A stretch of DNA of 45,869 nucleotides from Anaerolineales bacterium (lineage in GTDB: Bacteria > Chloroflexota > Anaerolineae > Anaerolineales > DRKV01), in NCBI GenBank assembly GCA_020061145.1, contig JAGUYX010000088.1, forward strand, positions 1-45,869, read 5' to 3'. Below the pieces are notes generated by a model. It did not search any database, had not been told where the DNA came from, and saw only the letters and a program-made list of their open reading frames with translations. This document shows positions 5,678 through 28,231 of the stretch, piece by piece; position 1 is the stretch's first letter; each line of letters opens with the position of its first letter. Made by a program: the position numbers and the translations under genes.

Positions 5678-6835
5678 TCATCGTCGCGGCAGTGACTGAG
5701 CGATCGTTCGCAACTGCTCCTGTGTAAGCATCTGCCCCGCCAGATGAAATACATCTCCATTACTTTCCCAAACCAGGTTTCCCCATTCCGGATTGCTGCT
5801 CCATTCACCGCTAGCGTTCCATGTCCCCGGATACCACCAGGCGGATATATCACCAATCGTGGTTTCTGATAACTCAACAGGACCTACCAAGAATACTGGT
5901 CCCGCCTGTTCTTTATCGGATTGGATCACGAGACCAAATTTGGTCTCACCAGCGTGGAAAACCTGGAATACCAGCCCTTGATCAGGAGGAGCTTGTATTT
6001 GCGTAAGAACCAGCAGATGGTCTGTGGGGTCTCCACCAACCAGGTAATTGATACTTAGCTGATAAGGTGGCATCGGCGGCCCGCCACCTGCCCAACTTTT
6101 GCTCGCCAGGGACGGAAACCCTAATTGCCTGACATCTCCTTCCATCACTGTCAGGTCCTGCCAGACAAAACTTTCAGGCAAATCACTGGGAACCGGGAAG
6201 CTATTCCCATCGGAGAGAATGATTAGGCTGCCCGGTACAGGAGCACTGAAACCTTCCCGACTGATTAGTTTCCATCGCTCTTTTGGATACTCGATCGTAT
6301 AGATCTCATAACCGACGTTATCCGAGCCGGCTAAAGGAGATTGCCAGTCGTGTTTCACTGCATTGACCACCAACGGCTGTAGTTTTTCTTGACGACTGAA
6401 GGAGAAACCCAACCAACCTGCCAGTACCGAACGCGTCTGTGGGATTGCAAGCAGTATACCCAAGAAGAAAATCAGGGCAAGCACACCCGCGAGACCAAGT
6501 CGCCATCCACTCGACAAGCTGTGTTCCCATTTCAAACGTAATCTGGATGAGATGTTTCTCCACCATCGAATCCCCTGTTGTGAGGAAGAAGTAACCTTGA
6601 TAGCTTTCTCCGCCTCCAAATCACCCGCTAAACTAGCTTGCATGCTCTTGACCAGGCGATCTCCCAGTTCCTGCTGAAACTCTGGCCTGGCCTGAGGTAC
6701 CGTCTCGGCAAGGTGACTGCAAAACCCGAGAATAGACTGGGCTTCTACTTTCCGATTCCCCCCCTCTTCTAGGATCTCCTCAACTTTTTCGATCAGTTCC
6801 CGATCTAAATCTGACAATTGATTATTCTCGTTCAT
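5678..6835 (-). CDS. single-pass membrane protein, putative anti-sigma factor
   Basis: It lies immediately downstream of the ECF sigma gene, and its AAGGAGGAG RBS overlaps the sigma gene's stop region. It has a cytoplasmic N-terminus, one TM (LGLAGVLALIFFLGILLAI) and a large outer domain ending LAGQMLTQEQLRTIAQSL. There is no zf-HC2 motif. Confidence 0.55.
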   Translation of the reverse strand: MNENNQLSDLDRELIEKVEEILEEGGNRKVEAQSILGFCSHLAETVPQARPEFQQELGDRLVKSMQASLAGDLEAEKAIKVTSSSQQGIRWWRNISSRLRLKWEHSLSSGWRLGLAGVLALIFFLGILLAIPQTRSVLAGWLGFSFSRQEKLQPLVVNAVKHDWQSPLAGSDNVGYEIYTIEYPKERWKLISREGFSAPVPGSLIILSDGNSFPVPSDLPESFVWQDLTVMEGDVRQLGFPSLASKSWAGGGPPMPPYQLSINYLVGGDPTDHLLVLTQIQAPPDQGLVFQVFHAGETKFGLVIQSDKEQAGPVFLVGPVELSETTIGDISAWWYPGTWNASGEWSSNPEWGNLVWESNGDVFHLAGQMLTQEQLRTIAQSLPRR

Positions 6836-6847
6836 GATGTCTCCTCC

Positions 6848-7441
6848 TTACCCCCCTGTTCGGTTTAAATGGTTAATGTATTTTCGATGCAGGCTCACCA
6901 ACGCCCTGGAAAGATGTGATGCTACAGTTCGTTCATCCAGTCCCAGGACTGTTGCGATCTCTTTATTGCGCAACCTGCCAAAAAACTTTAGCAGGATCAC
7001 TTCCTGGCGCCGTGAAGGCAACTCAAAAATCAACCGGCGGAGTTGTGCGAATTTCTCCTTTCGAAGCAGCGCATCTTCCGGAAGCAGAACACTCGCCCGC
7101 AGTTCAGGGAGTTCTTCCAGAGAAATAGGTTCATTTACTGTATTATTCTTCCGGTAGTAATCGTTCACCGTATTATGGGCGATACGAAAGATCCAGCTGG
7201 CGAATGAATTCTCGTGCTGCCACTCCAAACGAGTAATCCCTTCCATCGCTTTGAGAAAAATCTCTGAGGTCATATCTTCAGCGTCTTGAATTCGACCAAC
7301 CCGATAACTGACGTAAGCGTACACCCTGGAAAAGTAGGAATCGTATAAGTGCCTGAAAGCCAGCGGGTCGTTTTGAGCTTTCTCGACCCACTCCCGTTCA
7401 TAGGATACAGTTATTAATTGTTCCTGATAGCCCTTTTCCAT
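6848..7441 (-). CDS. ECF-type RNA polymerase sigma-70 family factor
   Basis: Region 2 reads FRHLYDSYFSRVYAYVSYRVGRIQDAEDMTSEIFLKA. The region 4 HTH reads NKEIATVLGLDERTVASHLSRALVSL. The size (197 aa) is typical of group 4 sigmas. Confidence 0.9.
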   Translation of the reverse strand: MEKGYQEQLITVSYEREWVEKAQNDPLAFRHLYDSYFSRVYAYVSYRVGRIQDAEDMTSEIFLKAMEGITRLEWQHENSFASWIFRIAHNTVNDYYRKNNTVNEPISLEELPELRASVLLPEDALLRKEKFAQLRRLIFELPSRRQEVILLKFFGRLRNKEIATVLGLDERTVASHLSRALVSLHRKYINHLNRTGG

Positions 7442-8158
7442 CTATCTATTACCATCCACATGCTGTTTTATAAACCAGCCTCTCCAAGAAGCTCCTAAGG
7501 CCAGTGAGATGATCGTTATTTCAATTAATAATCTCCAAAGTGGGTTAGTCCTCCCAGAATATGGAATCCCCAGTATCAAAAATGCTGATAAGAAGCGATC
7601 ACCCGCATACATCAGTAAGGCAGGTAGACATAGAGCCCATCTTTTATTTCCTGAAAGACTTCGCAGATTCTTTCCGATCCAATATCCATATATTGTATAA
7701 ACGCCTAAATCACACAGGTAAACAACCAGGAAGAAATAAGGCACTAATAGTACAAGCTCAATCCGGGCAATTCCCCATAATAAACCTGCCAATCCGGAAA
7801 CAATAAAGATAACGTACAAACTTCTTAACCGAAAATTTCCACTCAGCCCAATCAAAAAAATGGTTACCCTCCTACTGCACCCAAGAACCACCTTGGCACT
7901 ATGTATACCAATATGGCGGCATGGTACTTTTGAATGCACAGGACTTGTTCCATTTTCCACCAGGCTCCGCCCGAAAAGTTGCTGTTGTCCGATGCCATAT
8001 CTGGAAAATATTATGATCGTATGTTCCCTTAACAGAAAGGTAAACAACAGATGGGCCATAGAAACTCTTCGTTTTTGTACAGCTGATAAGATACCAACCA
8101 GTTCCAGATCTCCACTGTTCGGAAGACTCAGTATTGCCTCTGGCTTATCTATATCCAA
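7442..8158 (-). CDS. membrane protein: soluble N-terminal about 110 aa plus a C-terminal multi-TM part
   Basis: TTG start. The stop abuts the sigma ATG (TAG/ATG at 7442/7441). The C-terminal half is hydrophobic. The start is uncertain. Confidence 0.5.
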   Translation of the reverse strand: MDIDKPEAILSLPNSGDLELVGILSAVQKRRVSMAHLLFTFLLREHTIIIFSRYGIGQQQLFGRSLVENGTSPVHSKVPCRHIGIHSAKVVLGCSRRVTIFLIGLSGNFRLRSLYVIFIVSGLAGLLWGIARIELVLLVPYFFLVVYLCDLGVYTIYGYWIGKNLRSLSGNKRWALCLPALLMYAGDRFLSAFLILGIPYSGRTNPLWRLLIEITIISLALGASWRGWFIKQHVDGNR

Positions 8159-8159
8159 G

Positions 8160-8387
8160 TCAAGTCTTAAGGTAAGTTTCCATTTCTTCTTCCGGGGTGA
8201 TTTGCGGCATATCTAGATGCGGCTCCCGCCCATCGCTTCCTGTGTTTACCTTATCCAGGAAGCGGTAGAGTGATTCCAGGCGGGTGTGCAGCATTTCGAC
8301 TTCCCGCGCCAGGGCCAGGACCGCCATGCCCAACCCCATCACCAGCAGCCATAAGACCACATAACCGATCATCCACATGCCGCTCAT
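8160..8387 (-). CDS. small membrane protein resembling only the N-terminal TM segment of MauD-type redoxins
   Basis: 75 aa. WLLVMGLGMAVLALAREVEMLHTRLESL resembles the MauD N-terminus (LAL.RQ.GVL.ER). It has an ATGA overlap with the MauE-like gene. No thioredoxin CxxC is present. Confidence 0.5.
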   Translation of the reverse strand: MSGMWMIGYVVLWLLVMGLGMAVLALAREVEMLHTRLESLYRFLDKVNTGSDGREPHLDMPQITPEEEMETYLKT

Positions 8388-8989
8388 TGTTTTTGCTCCG
8401 TAGGTGTAAGGATAACCAGGCGCGCCATCTGCCAGATGATGCGAGCCAGCTGGTACAGGCCGGTGACGGCCAACGCTATTGGAAGCAGGTTATCAAGAAC
8501 ATAGATGTCAAGAATGAGTCGTTGGGTAACCTCCGGTAGGCCATCGAATGTCAGAAGGCCGCCGCCCCACAAAATCAGTGGAAAGACCATTATGAGGAAG
8601 GCAACGTTGCGTGCAATGATCTTGTACCCAATGATATGGCGGTGATGGCTGCCTGAACACCCGCAATCCAGGTCCGTTCGTCCGCGAGCCAGGTTGACCA
8701 CAATGGCGAACAGGAAGAGGAGCAACAGCATAGCACTAATAATGGCAGCCTCCCGCGTACGCCAGCCCAGGAGCAACATCAGGCCGAGGGCCAGTTCCAG
8801 CCAGGGGAGGGTGTAGACGAAGGGGCGTACCCAGCTCCGCGGCAGCAACCTGTAAGAAGCCACCGCCCCAGTAAAATAGCGCAGATCGCGGATTTTCCGG
8901 ACTGCTGACAAGAGAAATACTGCCGCCAATACGCTGCTTGCCAGCCTCAAAAACAACGGATCCCAAATTTGCGCAAGGATATTGCCCAT
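8384..8989 (-). CDS. MauE/DoxX-family membrane protein
   Basis: Four hydrophobic helices and the characteristic DLDCGCSG motif. I prefer the ATG at 8989, because the track start at 9109 would overlap the preceding gene by 85 nt. Confidence 0.7.
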   Translation of the reverse strand: MGNILAQIWDPLFLRLASSVLAAVFLLSAVRKIRDLRYFTGAVASYRLLPRSWVRPFVYTLPWLELALGLMLLLGWRTREAAIISAMLLLLFLFAIVVNLARGRTDLDCGCSGSHHRHIIGYKIIARNVAFLIMVFPLILWGGGLLTFDGLPEVTQRLILDIYVLDNLLPIALAVTGLYQLARIIWQMARLVILTPTEQKQ

Positions 8990-9024
8990 GTAGAAAACCC
9001 CGATATTGGCCGCGTCAGCCTCTG

Positions 9025-10473
9025 CTAAGGCTCGATGACAAACAGCGCTTCCTGGCCTGATTCCATGTGTGATCCATAAGTGACCAGGCGACTCCCATCC
9101 GGTGACCACCAGAGACGGTCAAGCCAGTAATTTGGGGCCTGCCACCGACTGAGCAACCGCCCTTCTGGAAAGCTGACGATCAGAACAGTGCCCTGTCGAA
9201 AGAAGGCCATCAGCTGTCCGTTACTCGACAAACCGCCAGAGCTTGCCTGGTCAGCAATCTTGACCGGAGCACTGCTGGGTGGATCCACCGCGCGCAGCCA
9301 GTAATCCATCTCACCGTTTCCTACCGGAGTATCGCTCAGAAACAACAACCATTTTCCGTCGGGTGAAAAGCTTCTCCAACCACCCGAGCCATCAGCGAAT
9401 GACCCTGGATAGAAGTGAAGCTCCTCGGTCTGATCGAGTTCGCTGTGGAAGAGCAGCGCCCCTTGATCCGACATCCCAAGCAGAATATGGTACTCTCCAA
9501 AGGTGGGATCGGCCTGGACTCCAATGGTCGAGACATTCTGCTCATCGTTCATCGCAAGCCCCAACAGATCAGGGAACACGTTGCTCACCCTGTCATCAGA
9601 CACAGAATAATAGAGGATACCCTTATCGACCGTCATACCAATTAGATATAACTCGTCATTGAGCCATCTCGGTCCCCCATAGACAAAATGCGGGCTATCG
9701 ATATAGGGAACCGAAACAATCGTCCGGCCGGTTCCAACTTCGGTAACCCTCAACTCAGTGTGGAAAGCCTGTTCTTCCAACTCGAGGATTATCCTTTCAG
9801 CCAAATGGCGACCATCCGGCGAGAGGTCTACCCTCGTATAAGGATTTGGCAGAGAAACGTTATCAACCGGTGCGAACGCCTCACAGGGCACTCCGCCAAT
9901 CGCCTTCCCCTCTCGATTCAGGATCGCGATCGCGCTCCCGTCCTCCTGCCAGACGACCCGGCCGCTCCCGAGGTCCTGGGCTTTCACGTCCTCGTATTGG
10001 CATGTCTCGCCAGAATCGACATTGGCAAAGGCCAGGGAGACAAGATTCTCCTCGCTCTCTCCAAGCCAGTAGGCGAACCACAGGTTTTCCGGCGCCCAAC
10101 TGTCGAAGCGCAATCGCAATCCGTCTGCGGTGATGAACGGTTCTTTGCTGGTGAGAGGAGCAGATGCAGTTGACGGGGTTTCCGTAACAGGAGCAAGGGT
10201 CGCAGTGGGCTGCGGCTCCATCTGTGTGCCGGTTGTCTTGGCCGGAGTCTTCGAGGCCTTCGCTGGCTCGACGGTTGCTTCGGTCTCCGCAGGGGCTGAG
10301 GAACTGGTGGGCGAGACTGCTGGTGAAGCCGGGGAGGCGCAGGCGACGAGGGCTAAAGCGAGTATCAGATAAATACTCAAGGAGTTCAGATAAATACTTA
10401 GCCGGAATGACTCGCTCCTGGCGCGACGAAACCTTTGGGAGGGAACAGTGATGAATTTTGGGATTTCCATCAT
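9025..10473 (-). CDS. lipoprotein with a TolB/PD40-like beta-propeller
   Basis: Lipobox LALVAC followed by an Ala/Pro/Thr/Ser-rich linker. Blade motifs LSPDGRHL, FSPDGKWLLF and WSPDGSRLV are present. Confidence 0.75.
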   Translation of the reverse strand: MMEIPKFITVPSQRFRRARSESFRLSIYLNSLSIYLILALALVACASPASPAVSPTSSSAPAETEATVEPAKASKTPAKTTGTQMEPQPTATLAPVTETPSTASAPLTSKEPFITADGLRLRFDSWAPENLWFAYWLGESEENLVSLAFANVDSGETCQYEDVKAQDLGSGRVVWQEDGSAIAILNREGKAIGGVPCEAFAPVDNVSLPNPYTRVDLSPDGRHLAERIILELEEQAFHTELRVTEVGTGRTIVSVPYIDSPHFVYGGPRWLNDELYLIGMTVDKGILYYSVSDDRVSNVFPDLLGLAMNDEQNVSTIGVQADPTFGEYHILLGMSDQGALLFHSELDQTEELHFYPGSFADGSGGWRSFSPDGKWLLFLSDTPVGNGEMDYWLRAVDPPSSAPVKIADQASSGGLSSNGQLMAFFRQGTVLIVSFPEGRLLSRWQAPNYWLDRLWWSPDGSRLVTYGSHMESGQEALFVIEP

Positions 10474-11045
10474 TTATCTGCCGATGCTGGACAATAAGCA
10501 TGGGGAGTAAAGGTCCAGGAGTAGATATTCGTCGAGGTTGTTACTCCTACTGCGCAACACGGAGCGATTGTTGAGCCTCCCGAGCGTTCCATATGCGAAT
10601 GTCGCCCTGTATAACAACCGCCACAAGCACCTGCTGGGACTGTCCCGAGCCACTTTGATGATGAGGTAAGGTTATACACCGTATTATTCGATACTTGAGG
10701 GTTATCAACATGCGCATACATCACAGAACCAATGTAATATATGGCATTTGGACATTCATATAACTCGACTTTTATTGTCCGCCGATACTGGTTTGCACAG
10801 CCAGGGCAACACCTAAGCTCCACAAAAGTCTTAATGCTTCGAATAGTTGGGTAATTAACTCTTAGATATAAATCTAAACTACCACTTATATAGGCGATAT
10901 CAACTGGTGAGGTCCCTCCTGCGCATGTACCATGAGCGCCACAAGAGCCGTTGCAAACGTCACCGTCACAGACACCGCAGCAATACTGAGTTTTTCCCGA
11001 AATACAACCGTTGCTTATTGGAGATCGAACGTATGCGGTAGCCAT
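10470..11045 (-). CDS. cysteine-rich (16 Cys) protein with a LytM/M23-like C-terminal motif and no signal peptide
   Basis: ATG at 11045 with a GGAGG RBS. The N-terminal cluster reads CISGKTQYCCGVCDGDVCNGSCGAHGTC. YAHVDNP...GTVP...YTGRHSHME parallels the M23 pattern YaHl....G.vG.TG..tGpHLHFE. The usual HxxxD appears as TSPVD. Confidence 0.6.
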   Translation of the reverse strand: MATAYVRSPISNGCISGKTQYCCGVCDGDVCNGSCGAHGTCAGGTSPVDIAYISGSLDLYLRVNYPTIRSIKTFVELRCCPGCANQYRRTIKVELYECPNAIYYIGSVMYAHVDNPQVSNNTVYNLTSSSKWLGTVPAGACGGCYTGRHSHMERSGGSTIAPCCAVGVTTSTNIYSWTFTPHAYCPASADK

Positions 11046-11073
11046 TAGAACCTCCAGAAAATTATATTTGTGC

Positions 11074-11805
11074 CTACCGATGCAGCGAGGTCTCAACGAG
11101 GTACTTCACAATTTCCTCAGAAGCTTCTCGTTTTTGGTCGTGCTCAACCACCAGCGTATACAAGATATCTTGTTTTATCCAGTGAAGAAGAGATCCCCGT
11201 TCGGTTGGTAGCATAACGCCGGGTGTGGGTGTGAAGTCAACTTTTTCTGCAGTTACCAAAACCATTTCCTCTTGCTCCCGGCTTGACAAACCTATTGACC
11301 GAAGGGGTAAGTTAATTGGCCAAATCGGGTATGGATGTGGAAATATTGGCCGTGCCGACACACTAATAAGAGGCTGGTTTCCATGAACCGAACCATAATC
11401 TATACCCACTGCAAATATCTTACCGGATTGGGTGAACCGAATTAAATTTCCTTGTATGAATTTCATGTAGGAGGGCAATGAATTCGGAACATAAGTTATA
11501 AAAGGGGCATGGCTAATCAATTCCGTAAGGTCATCGAACCAAATTGTTTCTCCTCTTATAGCCAAGGCGTCCGGATCCAGCCCATCATCCACCTGGCCTA
11601 ATATCGGAGCCGATGCGCATTGAACAAAGGGCGGTATAGGTGCTCCCTCTGGCAATAACACAAAACCGGAATATAGTTCCCCCTCCACTTCTTCATCGCG
11701 AACGTCTAAATCTATCCCCAACCGACTCCCAAGTCTTTGAAAGGGGTTTAGTACCACGCCTCCCACCAGGCTCATGAATTTGATGAAATCTCTCCTGGTT
11801 AACAT
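11074..11805 (-). CDS. Tat-signal extracytoplasmic protein, unknown function
   Basis: MLTRRDFIKFMSLVGGVVL contains a twin-arginine motif plus an h-region. A GGAAGGAGGAA RBS lies 7 nt upstream of the ATG at 11805. Confidence 0.75.
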   Translation of the reverse strand: MLTRRDFIKFMSLVGGVVLNPFQRLGSRLGIDLDVRDEEVEGELYSGFVLLPEGAPIPPFVQCASAPILGQVDDGLDPDALAIRGETIWFDDLTELISHAPFITYVPNSLPSYMKFIQGNLIRFTQSGKIFAVGIDYGSVHGNQPLISVSARPIFPHPYPIWPINLPLRSIGLSSREQEEMVLVTAEKVDFTPTPGVMLPTERGSLLHWIKQDILYTLVVEHDQKREASEEIVKYLVETSLHR

Positions 11806-11946
11806 CACCCATTCCTCCTTCCCATGCTATGCAAAAAGAGTAGAGGTTTATTTCTCCATCATTCCTTTTCGTCGGCTAATCTTCGTCAATCGCTCAACAA
11901 AAGAACCCATGACGCGTATACTTCTAGTTCTGATTTTGATAGTTCA

Positions 11947-12048
11947 TCCCTTATCCATAATAACGGGAAAGATCCCAAAATACTGCACGCAGGCAAGGGA
12001 AATCTTAAACTCTTAATCCAATTTCAAAGATGTGGATTCCATACACCT
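11947..12048. repeat. copy A of a roughly 100-bp repeated intergenic element (candidate shared promoter or leader)
   Basis: About 90 percent identical by eye to 13915-14016. It lies 142 nt upstream of the ATG at 11805, the first gene of the long cluster. Confidence 0.8.
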
Positions 12049-12647
12049 CCCCTCCACCTCTCATCTAACTTGGTGTACAGACGCCGTTAATAATCTGGCC
12101 TTGCCTGAAGAACAGAGTTGGCCAGGCGGATGCAAAAGACGATCTTTCCTTTCTGCAACAAGATCACAGCCGGCAGTATTCTTAGCGTGTTCGTTATAAG
12201 CAGAGTCCACCAGCTGTACCTGGGCCAATGCCCAGGCCTTTTACAGCATAAATAACGGCTATCTGAACCAGTATCGCGTGAATACAGTGCTGGTGCAGGT
12301 CTCCGCGAACCTGGACTGCTTGTTTCCTAATGAGGTACCGGAAGTGATTGTTACAGAGAGGGGATGCGCGGAGATACGTGTATTTACTCAGTAATGGGTA
12401 AATCGTGACTGCTCACCCATCCGAGGAAATAGAACACTGATTTTGCCGATTCAGCGAATGTTCGCGGATAAACCTTTATCGGCTCTCTCCAATCTTGGTT
12501 GGCTGGGATTTACTCTTTTCACCACCACCAAGTCACGAATAACCGCTAGAAATCCGCTCAGATCCGCAAAGTCCGCGTGATATGCGTTCTATCCGGGGCA
12601 AGAACAGGAAGGAGCCTGAGTAGTAACGTTTTTCAATCGATCTGCCC

Positions 12648-12694
12648 GCGCTTCAGCCGCACGCTTCGCTGTGCTCCGCGCGTGGCTGAAGCGC
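12648..12694 (-). terminator. long imperfect hairpin downstream of the 13863-12740 two-gene operon
   Basis: gcgcttcagccgcacgc (12648-12664) pairs with gcgtggctgaagcgc (12680-12694) with one bulge. It lies 46 nt after the stop at 12740. No clear T-tract follows. Confidence 0.35.
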
Positions 12695-12739
12695 CGGTTG
12701 GGCGTCACTGCCATAAAATGCTGGCGAGCAATACCGAGT

Positions 12740-13914: not shown

Positions 13915-14016
13915 TCCCTTATTCATAATAACGGGAAAGATCCCAAAATACTGCATGCAGGCAAGGGAAAATCTTTAACTCTTAATCGATTTCTTTGATG
14001 TGGATTCCATTCACCT
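13915..14016. repeat. copy B of the roughly 100-bp repeated intergenic element
   Basis: It aligns with 11947-12048 and shares the core cataataacgggaaagatcccaaaatactgca(c/t)gcaggcaaggga. It lies 52 nt upstream of the GTG at 13863. Confidence 0.8.
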
Positions 14017-14243
14017 GTCTCCCGGCGGGCCAGGTCAACCCAACCTATCCTTCGGGGGCCATCGAAGACGGGTTGCTGAAAAGCCATCAACCGTCCGCCC
14101 TACGAACAGGTGGCTATGACTTTGGTTCCAATAATATTATCCGATCCTCGTGGAAAAGAAGCCAGCAGGCGGGGAGCAGGATCATCGAAACGCAGCGTGT
14201 AGAGCCGGGCGCTGCGATAGTAAACGAAGTCCTGGTCGATTTG

Positions 14244-14942
14244 CTACACCCCAACCAGGTAGTCGATACCCATCCGGTCGGGGTGCGGGTAGACCAGGTA
14301 AGCCTGACCCGGCAGGGTGACAATCCGCTTAGAGGAAAATTGGTCCGTTGGACTGGCAGCAAACAGCCGGTCGCTGGGCCGGGGCAGCCGTCCGGTCAAT
14401 TGGTTCCGGACGCGTAACCGGGACAGGGGTAGCTTAGGATCCTCTCGTGTGGCGATGACCAGGTGCATCTGCGGTGGCAGGTGCTCGATCAGAAATGTGA
14501 GTGCGTTGTCTACTTGTTTGGAATCAATCACGTGGTAGTCGTCAAGGACAAAGATGAAGTTGTCGGGGATGGTAGTGATTTCATTGATCAGGGTTGTCAG
14601 AATCGATTCGGTTGTCGGTGGTTGAGGGGATTGGAGCACAGCCACCAAGCCCTCGCCAATTCCCGCCTTGATAGTCCGTAATGCCGCTACCAGGTAAGAG
14701 ACGAAACGCACCGGATCGTTGTCCCCTTTATCCAGTGACAGCCAGGCGACCCGCCTATCGCAGCCAGCGATCCATTCGCTGACCATTGTGGTCTTGCCAA
14801 ACCCGGCAGAGGCTGAGATGAGGGTCAGCTTGCAACCTGAAGAGAGACCCTCATTCAGCCGCTCGATCAGGCGGTGGCGTAGCACAATTTTAGCCCGGGG
14901 TGGAGGGAGATACAGCTTCGTGGCTAAAATTGGTGCAGACAT
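14244..14942 (-). pseudogene. truncated LAL (MalT/LuxR-family) regulator: N-terminal NTPase part only, fused to unrelated sequence
   Basis: The first roughly 183 codons are homologous to the two full-length paralogs (Walker A SAGFGKTT, Walker B FVLDDYH). Homology stops after RLRVRNQLT. The TPR and LuxR HTH parts are missing. Confidence 0.8.
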
Positions 14943-16301: not shown

Positions 16302-17072
16302 CTACATTCCTTGGTATTTCGAATCATCCAACCCTTGGCGGATATTCTCTTCATCTTTCATCTCGCTGAACTGTGGCGCACCGTGCGCCTGCGCCCAGGC
16401 AGCCTCTTCGGCAATGCACAGGTCGTCTATTGAAGCCCTCCTCCCAATGAACCAATTTCCGCAGTTCGGGCAGCGGACCAATTTCCCCACCAGCAGGTTA
16501 GGTGAAAAGAGATTCAAGGCAAAAGGATGGACGCAGCGTGGGCAGATCGTTCCACCAATGACACCATAATTGTGTCCGCTAGGAGGCAGGAGTTCGCCTT
16601 TCTTGCGCCCCCTGCTCAGGGTACGGACGACTTTAGAAAATAGAACCCAAATCAAGACCAAAGTGAGGATAAGCACGGTTATCTTCAATCCCCTCTGCCG
16701 GCTCTCCTCCGCGGTCATATAGTTGAATGTCATTTCACGAGTGCGTAGTTCGCGCCCATCACTCGTATATCCAATTGCATGCATGGTGTGCTTGCCGGGA
16801 GTGTAATCATCGGTGACGAATTGAACCTTGAATGGCGGTTCGGTATCCTCGGCGATCATGGTGTTGTCAATATAGAACTGGACCTTCACCAGGTTGGACG
16901 GACCCGTTACCTTCATACTGAATGTGCCCTGGATGGCACCTGTGCCGTCGGATGAACCGAAATCGCGTGAAACGCTCAATTCCAGTTCTTCCTCCGCCTG
17001 GGCACGAGCAGGAGTTACAAACCCCAGGATTGCCAGCAAAACTAGAAAAACATATAAGCAGTTCCTTTTCAT
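16302..17072 (-). CDS. single-pass membrane protein: extracellular Ig-like domain plus a cytoplasmic zinc ribbon
   Basis: ATG at 17072 with a GGAGA RBS. Signal KRNCLYVFLVLLAILGFVTPARA, a beta-rich domain, a TM (LKITVLILTLVLIWVLF), then CPRC...CPNC. Confidence 0.65.
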   Translation of the reverse strand: MKRNCLYVFLVLLAILGFVTPARAQAEEELELSVSRDFGSSDGTGAIQGTFSMKVTGPSNLVKVQFYIDNTMIAEDTEPPFKVQFVTDDYTPGKHTMHAIGYTSDGRELRTREMTFNYMTAEESRQRGLKITVLILTLVLIWVLFSKVVRTLSRGRKKGELLPPSGHNYGVIGGTICPRCVHPFALNLFSPNLLVGKLVRCPNCGNWFIGRRASIDDLCIAEEAAWAQAHGAPQFSEMKDEENIRQGLDDSKYQGM

Positions 17073-20236: not shown

Positions 20237-22888
20237 TTAGATCAAGCCCAGCTCATGGGCGCGAGCGATGGCTTCAGTGCGCCGCTGAACTTGTAGTTTT
20301 TCGAAGATCCGACGGTTGTGGCCTTTGACGGTGTCCAAGGCCAGGAATAACCTTGCGCAGATTTCCTGGTTGGAAAGACCCTCGGCGATCAGTCCCAGCA
20401 CTTCCAGCTCGCGTGGGGTGAGGGGTTCCACCAACCCTGTATGATTGGGAACGGAGGCTGTCAGTCTTTCTTCCTTCGTCTCCGCCTTGAAGGCAGCCAA
20501 CAACTTGTTGACATAATCCGGCTGGATACCCTGCGCTGCTGCTGCGGACAGGAGTTCCGCCATCGCAGGCCCTTCGTCCAGGAAGAGACGGATGAAACCT
20601 TCCGGTTCGGCACGCGTCAACACCTCATCCAATAGGTGCATAGCCTTATCATGTTCACCAAGTGCATAAAGCGCGATAGATTGCACAGCCATTACCCTGA
20701 ACAACCTATCCAACAAGCCTTCTGTTTCCGCTTGCTGGTGCAATAGTTCCAGGATCGCCAGCGCTGAAGAGGGGTCTTTTTGGGCGAGGAGCACGCGTGC
20801 CTGCATGAGTGGAAGGTTATTATGACGTACCAGTTGAGCGGCTGCATCTGTGTTGCCCTGCTGAAGGTGGAAATACACCCTGGTGAAGGCGATATGCGGC
20901 AGGCGTAAAGCGTAGTGCTTTTCACGCATGGTGTGTTCAGCCTGCGATAAATATTGTGCTGCGCCGGCCACATCTCCCCGGGCTAATTTAAGGTGAACCA
21001 TGAACAATTCGCTCGATATTAATCTATCAATGACTTGATCATACTGCCGCGCCAGTTGAACGCTTTGTTCCCCATACTGCTCCGCGAGGTTCAAATCGTT
21101 CCACTCATAGAATATCCGCGCCAGACCAATAAACACCAAAGGGGCATTATAAGGGGAATAAACATCAACCATATTCATAACTTGCTGGTAGGTCTCGGCT
21201 GCCAGGCGAAGCTGGCTTTGTTCTTCCTGGAGCTGGCTCAAACGGATCGAAGCCAATGTGGCGTCGATATCGTCGCCGGCTGCCTGGGCGAGAGCCAGGG
21301 CTTCGGCATATGCCCGACCGGCCTCAGCTAGGTTATTCTGGGAATAATAGGCAAACCCCATCGCCCGGGTGGCCATGGACCGGTCAGCCAGGTTATCAGG
21401 GTGCAGATACTCCAGGGCGCGGCGTGCTTGAACAAAGATGAGTTCTGTCTGATAATTCAGTTGCGCCAGGTTTGCCCGGGCGGCAGCAATCCTTCCGATC
21501 AGGTCACGAGTCTTTTCGTCCTGTCCGGCGCCCGGCGAAGATGTGGAAGCCAACGCTGCTTCGATCGCCTGGAGTATCTCTTCCACGCCAGTGAACTGAC
21601 CGATAACCAGCAGCATCGCAGCCTGCCCCCACCACAACATGGGCCTGGAATCCAGCACGGTCTTTGGCAGCGACTCCAGCCAGTGAAGGATCGTCGTGGC
21701 TGCGCCGCGCAGGTGGATGGGCATCTTCTTGCTTTCCATCAGGCGCTCGGCGCGCTCGATATCATTGGCTGCAGCCGCATGGCGGAAAGCCTCCAGCAGG
21801 AGGTCGTTGTGTTCATACCATTCGCTGGCATGGATGTGCAGTCCGGCGATCCCTTCAAGGGAGATGCTTTGTCCCAGCCGCTTGCGCAGAAGATCGCCAA
21901 AAAGGTGGTGATAGCGGTACCAGCCTCGCTCATTATCCTGCGGGACGGTGAACAGGTTGGCGCGTTCGAGATATTCCAGGGTCCCCTGCCCGGGGACAGT
22001 TGGGTCGAGCAGAACAGCGTCGCAAAGCGAGCCGCACATACGCTCGAGCACAGAAGTACGCAGCAAAAAACTCTGGATCCCGTCAGGCTGCTGGTGCAGG
22101 ACCTCTTCTAGCAAATAATCCACCACGAAGCGATGGCTGCCGGTGAAAGATTGGATGAAACCAGCGGTGTCTTTATGTCCCTGCATGGAGATCGCGGCTA
22201 ATTGCAGACCAGCGATCCAGCCTTCGGTGCGGGTCTCTAATGCAGTAACATTCTCTGCCGAGAGGTTCAGCCCCATCATCTGGTTGAGGAATTCGACGGC
22301 TTCGGCAGGGGTGAAGCGCAGATCGGCGGCGCGCAGTTCGGTCAGTTGGCCGCGGGCGCGCAGGCGCGCCAGCGGCAGGGACGGGTCTTCGCGCGTGGCA
22401 ATGAGCAGGTGCATCTGCGGCGGCTGGTGTTCGATGAGAAAAGCCAGGGATTGATCGACCGGTTGAGAATCGATTAGGTGATAATCATCGAGTACGAGCA
22501 GAAAGTGCTCAGGGATCCCCGAAATCTCGTTGAGAAGGGTGATCAAAAAGGTTTCGATTTGCAGTGGTTGGGGGGATTGAAGCGCGGCCAGCAATCCGTC
22601 ACCAATTCCAGCTTTGATCGTCTGTAACGCCTTCACAAGATAAGAGATAAAACGCGCCGGATCGTTATCCCCTGCATCCAGCGACAACCATGCCACCCAC
22701 CTACCGCAACCAGCGATCCATTCGCTGACCAGTGTGGTTTTGCCAAACCCGGCAGATGCTGAGATGAGGGTCAGCTTGCAACCCGAAGAGAGACCCTCGT
22801 TCAGCCGCTCGATCAGGCGGGGGCGTAGGACTATTTTAGCCCGGGGTGGAGGGATATACAGCTTCGTGGCTAAAATTGGCGTAGACAT
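20237..22888 (-). CDS. LAL-family regulator (MalT-like STAND NTPase + TPR region + C-terminal LuxR HTH), 883 aa
   Basis: Walker A SAGFGKTT and Walker B LLVLDDYH are present, followed by a long helical repeat region. The C-terminus reads LTPRELEVLGLIAEGLSNQEICARLFLALDTVKGHNRRIFEKLQV. Confidence 0.9.
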   Translation of the reverse strand: MSTPILATKLYIPPPRAKIVLRPRLIERLNEGLSSGCKLTLISASAGFGKTTLVSEWIAGCGRWVAWLSLDAGDNDPARFISYLVKALQTIKAGIGDGLLAALQSPQPLQIETFLITLLNEISGIPEHFLLVLDDYHLIDSQPVDQSLAFLIEHQPPQMHLLIATREDPSLPLARLRARGQLTELRAADLRFTPAEAVEFLNQMMGLNLSAENVTALETRTEGWIAGLQLAAISMQGHKDTAGFIQSFTGSHRFVVDYLLEEVLHQQPDGIQSFLLRTSVLERMCGSLCDAVLLDPTVPGQGTLEYLERANLFTVPQDNERGWYRYHHLFGDLLRKRLGQSISLEGIAGLHIHASEWYEHNDLLLEAFRHAAAANDIERAERLMESKKMPIHLRGAATTILHWLESLPKTVLDSRPMLWWGQAAMLLVIGQFTGVEEILQAIEAALASTSSPGAGQDEKTRDLIGRIAAARANLAQLNYQTELIFVQARRALEYLHPDNLADRSMATRAMGFAYYSQNNLAEAGRAYAEALALAQAAGDDIDATLASIRLSQLQEEQSQLRLAAETYQQVMNMVDVYSPYNAPLVFIGLARIFYEWNDLNLAEQYGEQSVQLARQYDQVIDRLISSELFMVHLKLARGDVAGAAQYLSQAEHTMREKHYALRLPHIAFTRVYFHLQQGNTDAAAQLVRHNNLPLMQARVLLAQKDPSSALAILELLHQQAETEGLLDRLFRVMAVQSIALYALGEHDKAMHLLDEVLTRAEPEGFIRLFLDEGPAMAELLSAAAAQGIQPDYVNKLLAAFKAETKEERLTASVPNHTGLVEPLTPRELEVLGLIAEGLSNQEICARLFLALDTVKGHNRRIFEKLQVQRRTEAIARAHELGLI

Positions 22889-25492: not shown

Positions 25493-28231
25493 TTACAACA
25501 GATCCAACTCGCGGGCGCGGGCGATAGCTTCAGTGCGGCTTTGTACTTGTAGTTTGCTGTAGATTTTCTGGTTATGCCCTTTAACCGTATTCAAGGCCAG
25601 GAAAAGCCGCTGGCTGATCTCACGATTCGAGAGACCCTGGGCAATGAGTCGGAGTACTTCCAACTCGCGCTGGCTCAATGGTTCGATCAGAGACTGGGCA
25701 GGAGGCAGATTAGACTTGCCATCGTTCTTCTGCTCCTCTGCTTCAAATACAGCCAGCAGCTTACCGATATAGTCTGGCATAATTCCACGAGCAGCAGCTT
25801 CGCGAAGCAGTTGCTCCATGAGTGGACCTTCGTCTAAAAACTTTCGAACGTAGCCCTCCGGCTCAGCCAGCCTCAGGGCTTGGTGCAGCGGCAAGAGAGC
25901 AGCAGGGATGTCGCCCTGTGCCTGGTGAGCAAGCGCCTGCAATTCCAGAATTTCGATCGCGCTGCCTGCCCTTCCGCCTTCATCCGCTTCATTAAGGAGG
26001 CGCTCCAGCAGTCCCATTACCTCAAGAATGGAGCGGTCTGCATGGTCACTCTTGTACTGGGCCAGGAGTATTCTGGCCAGGGTGATGTGCTCGAACTCGC
26101 GCAGGTAGTCGATGTTATCATCGATGGACAGGCCCTGCTTTTGCGCCCAGTCGAGGGCTTCCCCCAACCTGCCCTGCACGACCCACACCCTGATCTTCGA
26201 CGCCGCGACCGGATGCACATTGGGGGAGAAGTCACTCACATACAGGCGCTCTGCCTCATCCAGCAGTTCGAGAGCGCCGTCCAGGTCTCCTCGGGCCTCC
26301 CGTATGCGAGCCATCGCAACGTGCCAGCGATACCGGTTTTGCGGTAACCCGGTGAGTTCACCCAGTTCCTGGCTTCTCAACAGGTGCTGCGTGGCGGCAC
26401 CCAGATCGTTGTGCTCACGTTTGAGCACGCTCATTCCTACGTACGTATCTGCCGTTCCACGCACGGCAAGCGCCGGTGTGCCCTGTTCCGTTGCCAGCTG
26501 CAGTGCTTGCTCGTAGGTACGCATGGCCTCGTGGAGACGGCCTTGCGCAATCCGTATATCCGCCATGGAGATGGCGCACCCAATGGCGTCAGATATGTAC
26601 CCCGCCTTCAGTAACCTCGCCGTGCCTTCGGTATACGACCGGTGCGCTGCCTCGAGATCCCCGCTTGCCCAGGAAGTGAGCCCCAGGAATCCCGCTGCCG
26701 CTCCGTGCAAGAGATGATCGTCCTCAGATGCGAGGTCGAGCACCCGCCGGGCGTATTTCACGGTCGCAGGCGCATCGCCCTGAGCTAGTGCAATTGCGGC
26801 ACGGTACATGGCGATCGCACCCGGTAGACGGTGAAACTCCTCGTTGTCCACTACGACCATCTCAGCCGATGAGGCTTCCGGTCGTTCACTTGTGTCCGCC
26901 GTTGGTTCCAGCCACCGTTCGGCGTCCCGCAGCCGGGCCTCCACGCTCTCGAGTTGGCCGCCAAGTAGTAATGCCCCGGCATAGTGAACGCTGAGTACAG
27001 GCCTGAAGCGAAGCAGATCGTCGGGGAGCGCTTTAAGCCAGCCAAGCAGCGTGGCCTCCTGTCTACTCTTGCGCATGGCTGGCACTGCCATCTCGACCAG
27101 GTCCGCCGTTCGCTTGAAATCCTCGGCGGTCAGCGCATGGCGGATCGAATCGGCTTTCGAACCATTGTGCTCGTACCACTCGCTCGCACGCCTATGTAAA
27201 GCAGCTACCTGATCGGGTTGCTCTGCCATCAAATGCAAACGGAGAACTTCGGCAAAAAGGTGGTGATAGCGATACCAGTGGCGCTTATCATCCAGCGCGG
27301 AGACAAACAGGTTGCTTCGCTCCAGGGCTTCCAACAGCACTTTGCTTTCCTCCTGGTCCGTGACGGCATCGCACAGCGGGCCACTCAGCCAGTCGAGAAT
27401 GGAAGTCTGGAGCAAGAAGCTGCGGACTCGTTCGGACTGACGCTGCAGGACCTCTTCGACCAAATAGTCCACGATGTAGCGGTTGTCTCCAGCGAAAGCC
27501 CGTATGAACTCGTGAACGTCCTGTCGCCCCCGCGTCGAGAGTGCTGCCAGCTGGAGCCCCGCAATCCAGCCTTCGGTACGGGTTTCCAGAATGGCGATAT
27601 CTTCCGCTGAGAGGTTCAAGCCCATTACCTGGTTGAGGAAGTCGGCGGCTTCGCTTGGGGTAAAGCGCAGGTCGGCGGCGCGCAGCTCGGTCAATTGGTC
27701 CCGGGCGCGCAACCGGGCCAGGGGTAGATTTGGATCCTCGCGGGTGGCTATGATCAGGTGCATCTGTGGAGGCTGATGTTCGACGAGGAAGGCCAGGGCC
27801 TGATCTACTGGTTTGGAATCAATCACATGGTAGTCGTCCAGGACAAAGACAAAATAGTCCGACATGGTGGTGATTTCATTGAGTAGGGCCGTTAGAATCG
27901 CTTCGGTGGAGGGTGGCTGAGGGGATTGGAGAAAAGCCAATAAACCTTCACCAATACCCGCCTTGATGGTCTGTAAAGCTGCTACCAGGTACGAGATGAA
28001 ACGCACCGGGTCGCTATCCCCTTCATCCAGCGAAAGCCAGGCGACCGGTCGCCCACATACAGCAACCCATTCGCTGACCAGAGTGGTTTTACCAAAGCCA
28101 GCAGAGGCAGAGATGAGGGTAAGATTGTGGTGCAGGCCCTCGTTCAGCCGCTCGATCAGGTGATGACGGAGAACAATTTTTGCTCGAGGTAGGGGGATAT
28201 AAAGTTTTGTAGCCAAAATAGGCGTAGACAT
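25493..28231 (-). CDS. LAL-family regulator (MalT-like STAND NTPase + TPR + LuxR HTH), 912 aa
   Basis: Walker A SAGFGKTT and Walker B FVLDDYH are present. The C-terminus reads [45 protein letters not shown]. Confidence 0.9.

What the first reader, a model, noticed from the sequence alone, without database searches (positions are those of the whole stretch)
7442..11805. MauE/DoxX with a MauD-like stub, next to a beta-propeller lipoprotein, a signal-less 16-Cys LytM-like protein and a Tat-signal protein
Seen: 10470-11045 encodes 191 aa with 16 Cys, including CCGVCDGDVCNGSCGAHGTC. It has no N-terminal hydrophobic signal. Its C-terminal YAHVDNP...GRHSHME mirrors the M23/LytM YaHl...GpHLHFE block, but the first zinc-ligand motif HxxxD reads TSPVD. 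It sits 28 nt after a gene with a clear twin-arginine signal (TRRDFIKF) and overlaps the start of a PD40-type propeller lipoprotein. Next come a MauE-like protein (DLDCGCSG) and a 75-aa ORF that looks like only the TM head of MauD (LALAREVEMLHTRL) without a thioredoxin domain. The following ORF begins LSLPNSGDLELVG...LLFTF, reminiscent of the start of a thioredoxin fold, but the CxxC position reads LLREH. Established: in mau clusters, MauE and MauD are needed to mature the disulfide-rich small subunit of methylamine dehydrogenase, whose large subunit is a beta-propeller. Tat can co-export signal-less partners (hitchhiking). Inference: this may be an analogous but distinct system for maturation and export of a Cys-rich, possibly metal-binding, extracytoplasmic protein complex.
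Basis: partly seen in the sequence, partly recalled or inferred. Interest (0 to 1): 0.65.

Follow-up and report, generated by a model that had tools for sequence, protein, structure and literature searches.

The report
Signal-less Cys-rich M23-like enzyme cassette
A conserved Chloroflexota gene cassette encodes a very divergent, disulfide-rich zinc peptidase of the LytM/LasA (M23) type with no export signal. It always sits next to a partner carrying a twin-arginine signal, a lipoprotein and often a MauE disulfide-forming enzyme, which suggests piggy-back export followed by oxidative folding.

Summary
On the minus strand, 11808-8160 carries five tightly packed genes:
- a protein with an invariant TRRDFIK Tat signal;
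- a signal-less 191-aa, 16-Cys protein;
- a PD40 lipoprotein;
- MauE with a CGC motif;
- a 75-aa single-TM protein.

The Cys-rich protein belongs to an unannotated family of about 222 clusters at 50% identity. Its AlphaFold model (pLDDT 95.7) matches M23 peptidases first in both PDB and BFVD, though weakly. The zinc ligand is not lost. The family keeps H38-(x)9-13-D49, H112 and H149-x-H151 almost invariantly, which is the LasA-type (M23A) spacing.

Cys numbers are even in 27 of 31 close homologues, and Cys pairs are gained and lost together, so the Cys form disulfides rather than a metal cluster.

The Tat partner lies directly upstream in every signal-less member examined. The trio of Tat partner, enzyme and lipoprotein is tandemly duplicated in two loci, and MauE follows in seven loci. 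A homologue with its own lipoprotein signal has neither.

The "thioredoxin remnant" ORF is not supported and the MauD-stub likeness is weak.

Best reading: Tat hitchhiking, then MauE-driven disulfide formation. This is inferred, not shown.

The parts
11074..11808 (-). Tat-signal partner (243/244 aa; MMLTRRDFIKF...). The mature domain is mostly beta and of unknown family.
   Evidence: R4 and R5 are invariant and F7 nearly so in 24 homologues. 17 of 24 give weak TAT_signal hits, best E=0.0011. No other Pfam or PDB sequence hit. AF2 pLDDT is 84. The best Foldseek matches are RseB/LolA-like but weak (E about 1e-2, TM about 0.26). It lies directly upstream of the Cys-rich gene in all signal-less loci examined.
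10470..11045 (-). Signal-less, 16-Cys, divergent M23 (LasA/LytM-type) metallopeptidase-like protein, 191 aa.
   Evidence: 34 close homologues and 222 cluster representatives at E<=1e-3, with no Pfam or NCBIfam hit. AF2 pLDDT 95.7, pTM 0.90. Foldseek top hits are M23 peptidases in PDB (2gu1, LasA 3it5, beta-lytic protease 8af1, LytU, ShyA, LytM) and in BFVD. D49, H112, H149 and H151 are in 116/116 sequences and H38 in 111/116; the two HxH histidines were a selection criterion for that alignment. The broad profile's only PDB hit is LasA, E=0.13. hhalign against a LasA-family alignment gives E=1.1e-3 over 44 columns.
9025..10473 (-). Lipoprotein (lipobox LVAC) with a Pro/Thr/Ser-rich linker and PD40-type beta-propeller repeats, 482 aa.
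   Evidence: PF07676 PD40, E=3.5e-7. SPDG-type motifs occur at about residues 217, 370 and 457. Hydrophobic segment at residues 24-54. Homologues follow the enzyme gene in L004/L008, L022 and L023, and PD40-like lipoproteins follow it in L014 and L021. lgt is present in the window at 32125-32886.
8384..8989 (-). MauE-family membrane protein with the CGC motif (DLDCGCSG). The likely start is M41 of the ORF that opens at 9109.
   Evidence: PF07291, E=1.8e-29. Multiple hydrophobic segments. Homologues are in the cassette in L001, L004/L008, L010, L014, L020 and L023. MauE complements an E. coli dsbB deletion and needs its CXC motif (bioRxiv 10.64898/2026.03.05.709764).
8160..8387 (-). 75-aa single-TM protein translationally coupled to MauE (ATGA overlap). 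Its N-terminal 50 residues are conserved.
   Evidence: tblastn finds homologues right after MauE in L001, L004/L008 and L010 (43-57% identity over about 50 aa). Weak hit to the MauD N-terminus (TIGR02661, E=0.016, window copy only).
7442..8158 (-). 238-aa ORF of doubtful extent with a hydrophobic C-terminal half. Probably not part of the system.
   Evidence: No profile hit. No homologue in any related locus. The region has low G+C, 0.44.
6848..7441 (-). ECF-type sigma factor directly downstream on the same strand; a possible regulator.
   Evidence: Sigma70_r2 E=3e-16 and Sigma70_r4_2 E=8e-14. TIGR02937 E=2.6e-29. Other loci carry a GerE/sigma70_r4-type regulator just upstream of the cassette (L001, L004, L023).
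5678..6835 (-). 385-aa single-TM protein after the sigma factor; a putative anti-sigma factor.
   Evidence: Position, one hydrophobic segment at residues 107-139, and a weak DUF4367 hit, E=0.022. This assignment is inference.

Best explanation
The core is a three-gene unit: Tat-signal partner, signal-less Cys-rich M23-type zinc peptidase, and PD40 lipoprotein. It is served by a dedicated MauE plus a small TM subunit.

Proposed mechanism:
1. The enzyme folds around its zinc site in the cytoplasm and binds the partner.
2. The pair crosses the membrane through the Tat pathway on the partner's twin-arginine signal (hitchhiking).
3. Outside, MauE, a DsbB-like quinone-linked CXC oxidase, drives formation of up to eight disulfides. 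It may act directly or through its small TM subunit, since no thioredoxin-fold MauD is encoded nearby.
4. The lipoprotein propeller holds or directs the complex at the cell surface.

The enzyme probably cleaves peptide bonds in peptidoglycan or another envelope or prey substrate.

Shown here: gene identities, conservation of the Tat motif, conservation of the M23 catalytic residues, disulfide-type Cys statistics, and synteny.

Inferred: the physical complex, the Tat route, MauE as the oxidant, the substrate, and the role of the propeller.
For: - M23 identity: fold matches. H(x)9-13D, a His 31-45 residues before HxH, and HxH are conserved, matching the M23 definition and LasA's H(x)12D given in review PMC9662197. 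LasA is the only PDB sequence hit, and hhalign gives E=1.1e-3.
- Extracytoplasmic and disulfide-bonded: Cys number is even in 27/31 close homologues (p=1.7e-5) and in 78/119 distant ones (p=4e-4). C83 co-varies perfectly with C141/142, and C23 with C35 in 6 of 7. Rare homologues carry their own lipoprotein signal peptide (P0105, P0148).
- No signal: only 3 of 164 family members pass the N-terminal hydrophobicity threshold, and one further member (P0148) has a lipoprotein-type signal by eye.
- Partnership: the Tat partner is directly upstream in the window and in L001, L004/8, L006/12, L009, L010, L011, L014, L019, L020, L021, L022 and L023. The RR motif is invariant. The triad is tandemly duplicated in L022 and L023.
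- The homologue with its own signal (L016) has no Tat partner and no MauE within 1.3 kb upstream or 6 kb downstream.
- MauE co-occurs in seven loci. MauE functions as a DsbB substitute through its CXC motif.
- TatA and TatC lie 3 kb from the cassette in L004.
Against: - Similarity to M23 is weak at every single test: Foldseek E about 1e-2 with TM 0.3-0.5, hhalign probability 20%, and no PF01551 hit in 0/31 members.
- No complex prediction could be run, so binding of enzyme and partner is untested.
- Tat normally carries folded, often cofactor-bearing proteins. A protein that needs eight disulfides might not reach a transport-competent fold in a reducing cytoplasm.
- MauE was not found in some loci (L009, L011, L012), and L009 has a DsbD_2-type protein instead.
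- The Tat partner has no obvious signal-peptidase site, so it may stay membrane-anchored.
- One third of distant homologues have an odd Cys count.
Confidence: 0.55

Rival explanations
1. Secreted lytic enzyme with a trans-acting inhibitor or propeptide. The Tat-signal protein is mainly a latency or immunity factor that blocks the M23 groove. It would be the separate-gene counterpart of the N-terminal propeptides of LasA, lysostaphin and LytM. Export of the enzyme could occur by another route or by the same hitchhiking.
For: M23 enzymes commonly carry propeptides that occupy the active groove (PMC9662197). The partner's mature domain (about 200 aa) is encoded immediately upstream, as a propeptide would be. 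The partner evolves faster than the enzyme: L022 and L023 carry two partner subtypes at 35-61% identity to the window's, next to enzymes at 53-68% where tblastn detected them (the second L022 copy was below detection). A highly conserved segment, GELYxGFxLLPEGAPxP, follows the signal. The Bacteroidota-like homologue sits among secreted peptidase-like genes.
Against: There is no sequence or fold similarity of the partner to any known M23 propeptide or inhibitor. This reading does not by itself explain how a signal-less enzyme leaves the cell. It is compatible with the best explanation rather than exclusive of it.
Confidence: 0.25
2. A methylamine-dehydrogenase-like redox enzyme. The Cys-rich protein would be the small cofactor-bearing subunit, the propeller the large subunit, and MauE with the stub the maturation factors, as in mau clusters.
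For: The overall cast resembles MADH: a propeller, a small disulfide-rich protein and MauE. In L009 a true MauA-like gene (PF02975, E=1.5e-8), a MauB-like gene (PF06433, above cut-off) and a DsbD_2 gene lie just downstream of the triad.
Against: The Cys-rich protein has an M23 fold and M23 metal and catalytic residues, with no PF02975 hit. prop482 has PD40 but no MADH heavy-chain hit. No MauA-like sequence is in the window (tblastn), and no MauG-type or haem protein is among the 36 window ORFs scanned with Pfam. The MauA/MauB pair is present in only one of 13 loci. The preprint reports that MauE is mostly unlinked to MauA.
Confidence: 0.05
3. A cytoplasmic, metal-binding or non-catalytic LytM-like protein. 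The Cys would bind zinc, iron or copper inside the cell, and the neighbouring Tat, lipoprotein and MauE genes would be functionally separate.
For: There is no signal peptide in about 98% of members. Cys-rich CxxC-like runs could bind metal. Degenerate LytM domains that act as regulators are well known (PMC9662197).
Against: Even Cys counts and pairwise gain and loss of Cys fit disulfides, not clusters. The catalytic residues are invariant, unlike degenerate LytM factors. Synteny with exported partners and a disulfide-forming enzyme is strict, including tandem duplication of the whole triad. Some homologues have their own lipoprotein signals.
Confidence: 0.1

Closest known systems
M23A metallopeptidases: LasA/staphylolysin of Pseudomonas aeruginosa and beta-lytic protease of Lysobacter
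   Same: Both have a mature domain of about 180-190 aa and a long H(x)n D spacing (LasA n=12; here n=9-13, window n=10). Both have a catalytic His about 30-40 residues before HxH, a Cys just before HxH, and disulfides. They are the best sequence-level and near-best structural matches.
   Different: There is no detectable Pfam PF01551 match. This family has 9-26 Cys per protein, against the few in LasA (two invariant Cys in the A5 LasA-family alignment; two disulfides from memory). It has no signal peptide and no fused propeptide. Instead a separate Tat-signal protein is encoded upstream, and the family has a conserved N-terminus, M-x-x-x-Y-V-Y-A-P.
Tat hitchhiker export (for example hydrogenase-2 HybO/HybC, DmsAB, PaoABC)
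   Same: One subunit carries an invariant twin-arginine signal. The adjacent, always co-encoded partner has none.
   Different: Known natural cases are cofactor-bearing redox enzymes (from memory; PaoABC in PMC4273604). Here the cargo would be a zinc hydrolase that needs many disulfides after export. Nothing has been tested experimentally.
MauE/MauD of methylamine utilisation clusters, and MauE as a general DsbB-like oxidase (bioRxiv 10.64898/2026.03.05.709764)
   Same: A MauE family member with the CGC motif between TM helices, encoded next to a small disulfide-rich exported client.
   Different: The partner is only a 51-75-aa TM peptide without a thioredoxin domain. The client is an M23-type protein rather than the TTQ-bearing MauA. 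After the CGC motif the window reads SG rather than the usual FG.
LolA/RseB-like periplasmic beta-half-barrel proteins
   Same: They are the best structural matches of the Tat partner's mature domain.
   Different: The match is weak (TM about 0.26, E about 1e-2). There is no sequence-profile similarity, including to the neighbouring anti-sigma-like proteins.

Membership tests
Peptidase family M23 (MEROPS M23; Pfam PF01551) | First motif H(x)nD, which supplies two zinc ligands. | tested here: met
   H38 is in 111/116 sequences and D49 in 116/116. Spacing is n=9-13 in 95 of 111, and 10 in the window. The review gives H(x)nD with n=12 in LasA and n=7 in gp13. Spatial proximity could not be checked because no coordinates were available.
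Peptidase family M23 (MEROPS M23; Pfam PF01551) | Second motif HxH. | tested here: met
   H149-S-H151 in the window. 109 of 119 full-length representatives carry H.H[MFLIV], and it is invariant in the 31 close homologues. In A4 its invariance is partly by selection.
Peptidase family M23 (MEROPS M23; Pfam PF01551) | Additional catalytic His about 30 residues before HxH (LytM H260, LasA H81). | tested here: met
   H112 is in 116/116 sequences, mostly 31-45 residues before H149. It aligns with LasA H81 in both hmmsearch and hhalign.
Peptidase family M23 (MEROPS M23; Pfam PF01551) | M23 beta-sheet core fold. | tested here: met
   The model has pLDDT 95.7. M23 enzymes fill the top of the Foldseek lists in PDB and BFVD with probability up to 1.00, but E is only about 1e-2 and TM 0.3-0.5. 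The feature is met weakly.
Peptidase family M23 (MEROPS M23; Pfam PF01551) | Match to the family sequence profile. | tested here: not met
   PF01551 is not hit by any of 31 members, even at E<=10. The close-family profile finds nothing in PDB. The broad profile finds only LasA at E=0.13. hhalign against the LasA family gives probability 20%.
Peptidase family M23 (MEROPS M23; Pfam PF01551) | Zinc content and endopeptidase activity. | not testable with these tools
   This needs purified protein.
MauE (PF07291), DsbB-like disulfide-forming membrane protein | Family profile match, several TM helices, and a CXC motif in the loop between TM3 and TM4. | tested here: met
   PF07291, E=1.8e-29. Hydrophobic segments. 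DLDCGCSG in the window and DLECGCFG in L001. The motif's role is described.
MauE (PF07291), DsbB-like disulfide-forming membrane protein | Disulfide-forming activity, shown by complementation of a dsbB deletion. | not testable with these tools
   It has been shown only for two other MauE proteins, in the preprint.
MauD (TIGR02661) | Thioredoxin-fold domain with CxxC after an N-terminal TM anchor. | tested here: not met
   The 75-aa protein ends after the TM helix and a short tail. There is no CxxC thioredoxin ORF in any frame of the window and no redoxin hit among the neighbours.
MauD (TIGR02661) | Similarity of the TM head to the MauD N-terminus. | tested here: inconclusive
   E=0.016 for the window copy. 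There is no hit for three homologues.
Tat substrates and hitchhiker pairs | S/T-R-R-x-F-L-K motif followed by a moderately hydrophobic stretch, conserved in homologues. | tested here: met
   T-R-R-D-F-I-K in the window. RR is invariant in 24 sequences. 17 of 24 have weak TAT_signal hits.
Tat substrates and hitchhiker pairs | A signal-less partner that is obligately co-encoded. | tested here: met
   The partner is adjacent in 13 of 13 signal-less loci. It is absent where the enzyme has its own signal (L016).
Tat substrates and hitchhiker pairs | A physical complex and Tat-dependent co-export. | not testable with these tools
Experiment is needed.
Methylamine dehydrogenase (mau) cluster | MauA light chain (PF02975), MauB heavy chain (PF06433) and MauG. 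| tested here: not met
   None is in the window. MauA-like and MauB-like genes occur only in L009.

The most novel reading that the evidence does not exclude
This would be a natural 'split pre-pro-enzyme'. The signal peptide and a chaperone or propeptide-like domain are on one gene, and a cofactor-free zinc hydrolase is on the next. The hydrolase would be exported by Tat hitchhiking and then oxidised into a protein with up to eight disulfides by a dedicated MauE. That MauE would work without any thioredoxin-fold relay, using only a 50-75-aa TM subunit. If so, it is both a new class of Tat cargo and a new mode of MauE action.
Probability: 0.3. Interest if true: 0.75.

Novelty: new variant of a known kind. 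Interest (0 to 1): 0.6.

Why it matters
- The cassette defines an unannotated protein family: about 222 clusters at 50% identity, all labelled 'hypothetical', with no Pfam or NCBIfam model. The family is a far-diverged branch of the M23 peptidases.
- It offers a testable natural case of Tat hitchhiking by a non-redox hydrolase.
- It gives the newly proposed MauE disulfide pathway a specific, genetically linked client outside methylamine metabolism, in Chloroflexota, where oxidative protein folding is poorly understood.
- Disulfide-rich M23 enzymes from partly thermophilic lineages could also be of interest as stable lytic enzymes.

Tried and rejected
- Pfam and NCBIfam on the 16-Cys protein and on all 31 close homologues gave no hit.
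- phmmer and the close-family profile against PDB gave nothing relevant.
- hhalign of the close family against the lysostaphin catalytic domain aligned only 16 columns around HxH, which is not significant.
- I asked whether the Tat partner shares the DUF4367/RseB-like sensor domain of the neighbouring anti-sigma-like proteins. hhalign gave E=0.11 and 0.21, and Pfam gave no DUF4367 hit, so the idea was rejected.
- Three homologues of the 75-aa protein gave no MauD hit.
- tblastn found no MauA-like gene in the window.
- A six-frame scan found no thioredoxin CxxC ORF; the only hits were spurious frames and the 16-Cys gene itself.
- prop482 and the 527-aa lipoprotein that occupies the same position in L009, L011 and L012 have no significant similarity beyond the signal and linker region.
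- The promoter and terminator scan was not above shuffled expectation.
- Rfam found only a tRNA-Ser far away.
- prop482 against PDB sequences gave nothing useful.
Cys-Cys distances and the position of H38 at the metal site could therefore not be measured.


Full report
**1. What is in the window**

All genes of the finding lie on the minus strand and are tightly packed.
- 11808-11074: a 243/244-aa protein that begins MMLTRRDFIKF.
- 11045-10470: a 191-aa protein with 16 Cys. It starts 28 nt after the previous stop and has a GGAGG Shine-Dalgarno sequence.
- 10473-9025: a 482-aa protein with an ATGA overlap onto the previous gene, lipobox LVAC, a Pro/Thr/Ser-rich linker and a PD40 repeat hit (E=3.5e-7).
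- About 8989-8384: MauE (PF07291, E=1.8e-29), with DLDCGCSG.
- 8387-8160: a 75-aa single-TM protein, again with an ATGA overlap.
- 8158-7442: a 238-aa ORF with no hit.
- Downstream: an ECF sigma factor (7441-6848) and a single-TM, anti-sigma-like protein (6835-5678).

The rest of the window is ordinary chromosome: dnaN, gatB, gdh, nadE, lgt, LuxR/MalT-type regulators and one tRNA-Ser. Related loci come from Anaerolineae and Thermoflexus MAGs, that is, Chloroflexota.

**2. The 16-Cys protein**

*The family.* It has 34 close homologues, all unnamed or 'hypothetical' and none with a Pfam domain. A profile search of 1.84 billion representatives finds 222 clusters at E<=1e-3. Almost all are 160-230 aa and align from residue 1. 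Only 3 of 164 members of at least 150 aa pass the N-terminal hydrophobicity threshold. Two of those are chimeric-looking (P0020, P0034) and one (P0105) has a clear lipoprotein signal. P0148 also has a lipoprotein-type signal by eye.

*The fold.* AlphaFold2 with the family alignment gives pLDDT 95.7 and pTM 0.90. In PDB, Foldseek puts M23 peptidases in essentially all of the top 24 places: Vibrio 2gu1/ShyA, LasA, beta-lytic protease, LytU, Csd1/2, pseudoalterin, lysostaphin and LytM. The viral BFVD library gives the same family independently. The scores are weak, with E about 1e-2 and TM 0.3-0.5.

*The catalytic residues.* In a 116-sequence alignment spanning the whole family, D49, H112, H149 and H151 are invariant. 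H38 is present in 111/116, C22 in 106, C80 in 112 and C144 in 109. Sequences were pre-selected for an H.H motif, which 109 of 119 full-length representatives have.

The spacing between H38 and D49 is 9-13 residues in most members and 10 in the window. A review of the M23 family defines the motifs as H(x)nD and HxH. It gives n=12 for LasA (subfamily M23A) and n=7 for phage gp13, and describes a further catalytic His about 30 residues before HxH (PMC9662197).

This family has the long-spacer, LasA-like arrangement, and all five M23 active-site residues are present.

*Sequence-level support.* The broad profile's only PDB hit is LasA (E=0.13), aligned from YYHM (H81) to PHLHF. hhalign against an alignment of true LasA relatives (PF01551-annotated) gives E=1.1e-3 over 44 columns at 20% probability.

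My conclusion is that this is a real but very divergent M23-type protein that current profile libraries miss.

**3. Disulfides rather than a metal cluster**

- Cys counts are even in 27 of 31 close homologues (binomial p=1.7e-5) and in 78 of 119 distant ones (p=4e-4).
- Variable Cys come and go in pairs. C83 is present exactly when C141 or C142 is. C23 and C35 co-occur in 6 of 7 cases. An inserted Cys after position 80 co-occurs with one after 142 in 4 of 5.
- Together with the homologues that have their own lipoprotein signals, this points to an extracytoplasmic, disulfide-bonded protein.

**4. The Tat partner**

- In 24 homologues the twin arginines are invariant and the motif is T/S-R-R-D/x-F-I/L-K. 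17 of 24 give weak TAT_signal hits.
- A strongly conserved segment, GELYxGFxLLPEGAPxP, follows the signal.
- The model (pLDDT 84) is mostly beta. Its best structural matches are RseB/LolA-like proteins, but they are weak. No sequence relationship to any known family was found.

**5. Synteny**

- *Tat partner.* I mapped the window's proteins onto 13 distinct related loci by tblastn and gene calls. In every locus where the enzyme lacks a signal, the Tat-partner gene is immediately upstream. These loci are L001, L004/L008, L006/L012, L009, L010, L011, L014, L019, L020, L021, L022 and L023, and they include members only about 30% identical to the window's enzyme.
- *Lipoprotein.* A large lipoprotein follows the enzyme. 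It belongs to the prop482 family or is PD40-like in the window, L004/8, L014, L021, L022 and L023. A different 527-aa family occupies the same position in L009, L011 and L012.
- *Tandem triads.* In L022 and L023 the whole triad of partner, enzyme and lipoprotein is tandemly duplicated. In L023 the two triads are followed by MauE at the contig end.
- *MauE and the small TM protein.* MauE is in the cassette in the window, L001, L004/8, L010, L014, L020 and L023. Where tested (L001, L004/8, L010), it is followed by the small TM protein.
- *Natural control.* The Bacteroidota-like homologue P0105 has its own lipoprotein signal. It has no Tat partner and no MauE nearby. It sits between a T9SS-tailed protein that by eye looks like a cysteine peptidase (no profile test was run) and a C39_2 lipoprotein.

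**6. MauE**

A 2026 preprint shows three things (bioRxiv 10.64898/2026.03.05.709764).
- Two MauE proteins restore motility and PhoA activity to an E. coli dsbB deletion.
- Both Cys of the CXC motif are required.
- MauE is mostly unlinked to MauA, so it is a general DsbB-like oxidase that probably works through a thioredoxin-fold partner.

The window's MauE has the CGC motif. However, no thioredoxin-fold protein is encoded in the 45.9-kb window. The only candidate companion is the conserved 51-75-aa TM protein. Its likeness to the MauD N-terminus rests on one E=0.016 hit that its homologues do not reproduce.

**7. Most likely mechanism**

The comparative pattern has four parts.
- The enzyme is obligately signal-less.
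- Its partner is obligately Tat-signalled.
- The Cys behave like disulfide Cys.
- A dedicated disulfide-forming membrane enzyme is linked to the cassette.

This pattern is best explained as follows. The partner and enzyme are co-exported by Tat (hitchhiking). MauE then drives oxidative folding outside the cell. The lipoprotein propeller completes or anchors a surface complex. The partner may also act as a trans propeptide or inhibitor, as fused propeptides do in LasA, lysostaphin and LytM.

Every step beyond gene identity and co-occurrence is inference. I put this at 0.55. The substrate is unknown: peptidoglycan remodelling in filamentous Chloroflexota, or lysis of other cells. The nearby ECF sigma and anti-sigma pair, and the GerE-type regulators in other loci, suggest envelope-linked regulation.

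**8. Rivals**

- A MADH-like redox enzyme is unlikely. The small protein has an M23 fold and M23 residues, and there is no MauA, MauB or MauG in the window. Even so, L009 places a true MauA/MauB-like pair and a DsbD_2 gene next to a triad.
- A cytoplasmic metal-binding or degenerate LytM-type regulator is disfavoured by the Cys statistics, the invariant catalytic residues and the synteny.

**9. Novelty**

Each ingredient is known: the M23 fold, Tat hitchhiking and MauE. The family itself and this combination appear undescribed. Three literature searches found nothing on it. I class it as a new variant of a known kind, with interest 0.6.

Noticed in passing
L009:10226-12834: In an Anaerolineae MAG the triad is followed by three further genes: a true methylamine-dehydrogenase light-chain-like gene (149 aa, PF02975, E=1.5e-8), a DsbD_2-type membrane protein (207 aa), and a heavy-chain-like propeller (429 aa, PF06433, above cut-off). 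Here two different disulfide-rich clients sit side by side with no detectable MauE.
   Followed up: partly
L009:6946-7953; proteins P0049 and P0204: In some homologues the Tat-partner reading frame runs about 110 residues upstream of the RR motif. The extra stretch forms a domain with a CxxC motif (FDSGCSQC / YDAGCSLC). It may be a separate start, or a cytoplasmic redox domain fused ahead of an internal Tat signal-anchor.
   Followed up: no
L022:33-5356 and L023:5744-11674: The triad of Tat partner, M23-like enzyme and PD40 lipoprotein is tandemly duplicated. In L022 the second copy is of a much more divergent subtype. In L023 both copies share one downstream MauE.
   Followed up: yes
proteins P0050 and P0052 versus window 11074-11808: A second subfamily of Tat partners is only about 37% identical overall. 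Yet its signal peptide is almost identical to the window's: MLTRRDFIKFTSLVGGVVLNPFQRLGSRLGI, 30 of 31 residues. This suggests domain swapping or conversion between paralogues.
   Followed up: no
L001:7237-7961 (the same in L002 and L003): The Tat-partner gene is split into overlapping 81-aa and 160-aa ORFs in different frames. This is seen in three independent assemblies of one organism. It is either a real frameshift or pseudogene, or recoding.
   Followed up: no
L012:8832-15634, 13957-14064 and 16326-16484: The Thermoflexus locus has four tandem paralogues of the 527-aa lipoprotein after the enzyme gene. It also has a fragment matching the enzyme's HxH region and the start of a second Tat-partner gene.
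   Followed up: no
L016:302-2739: The homologue with its own lipoprotein signal (P0105) is flanked by two genes. One is a T9SS-tailed protein whose sequence looks by eye like an NlpC/P60-type cysteine peptidase. The other is a Peptidase_C39_2 lipoprotein. Together they may be a secreted lytic set.
   Followed up: partly
window 14244-14942: This is a 232-aa ORF with only the AAA_16/NACHT N-terminal part of the MalT/LuxR-type regulators. Those are encoded in full at 20237-22888 and 25493-28231, so this is probably a truncated paralogue.
   Followed up: no
window 11809-12739: About 930 bases upstream of the cassette have no ORF of note, no Rfam match and no enriched promoter or terminator signal. 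This is an unusually long gap for this gene-dense window.
   Followed up: partly
window 7442-8158: This is a low-G+C (0.44) ORF with a hydrophobic C-terminal half, no homologue in related loci and a TTG start. Its real extent is doubtful, and it may be a recent insertion between the cassette and the sigma factor gene.
   Followed up: partly
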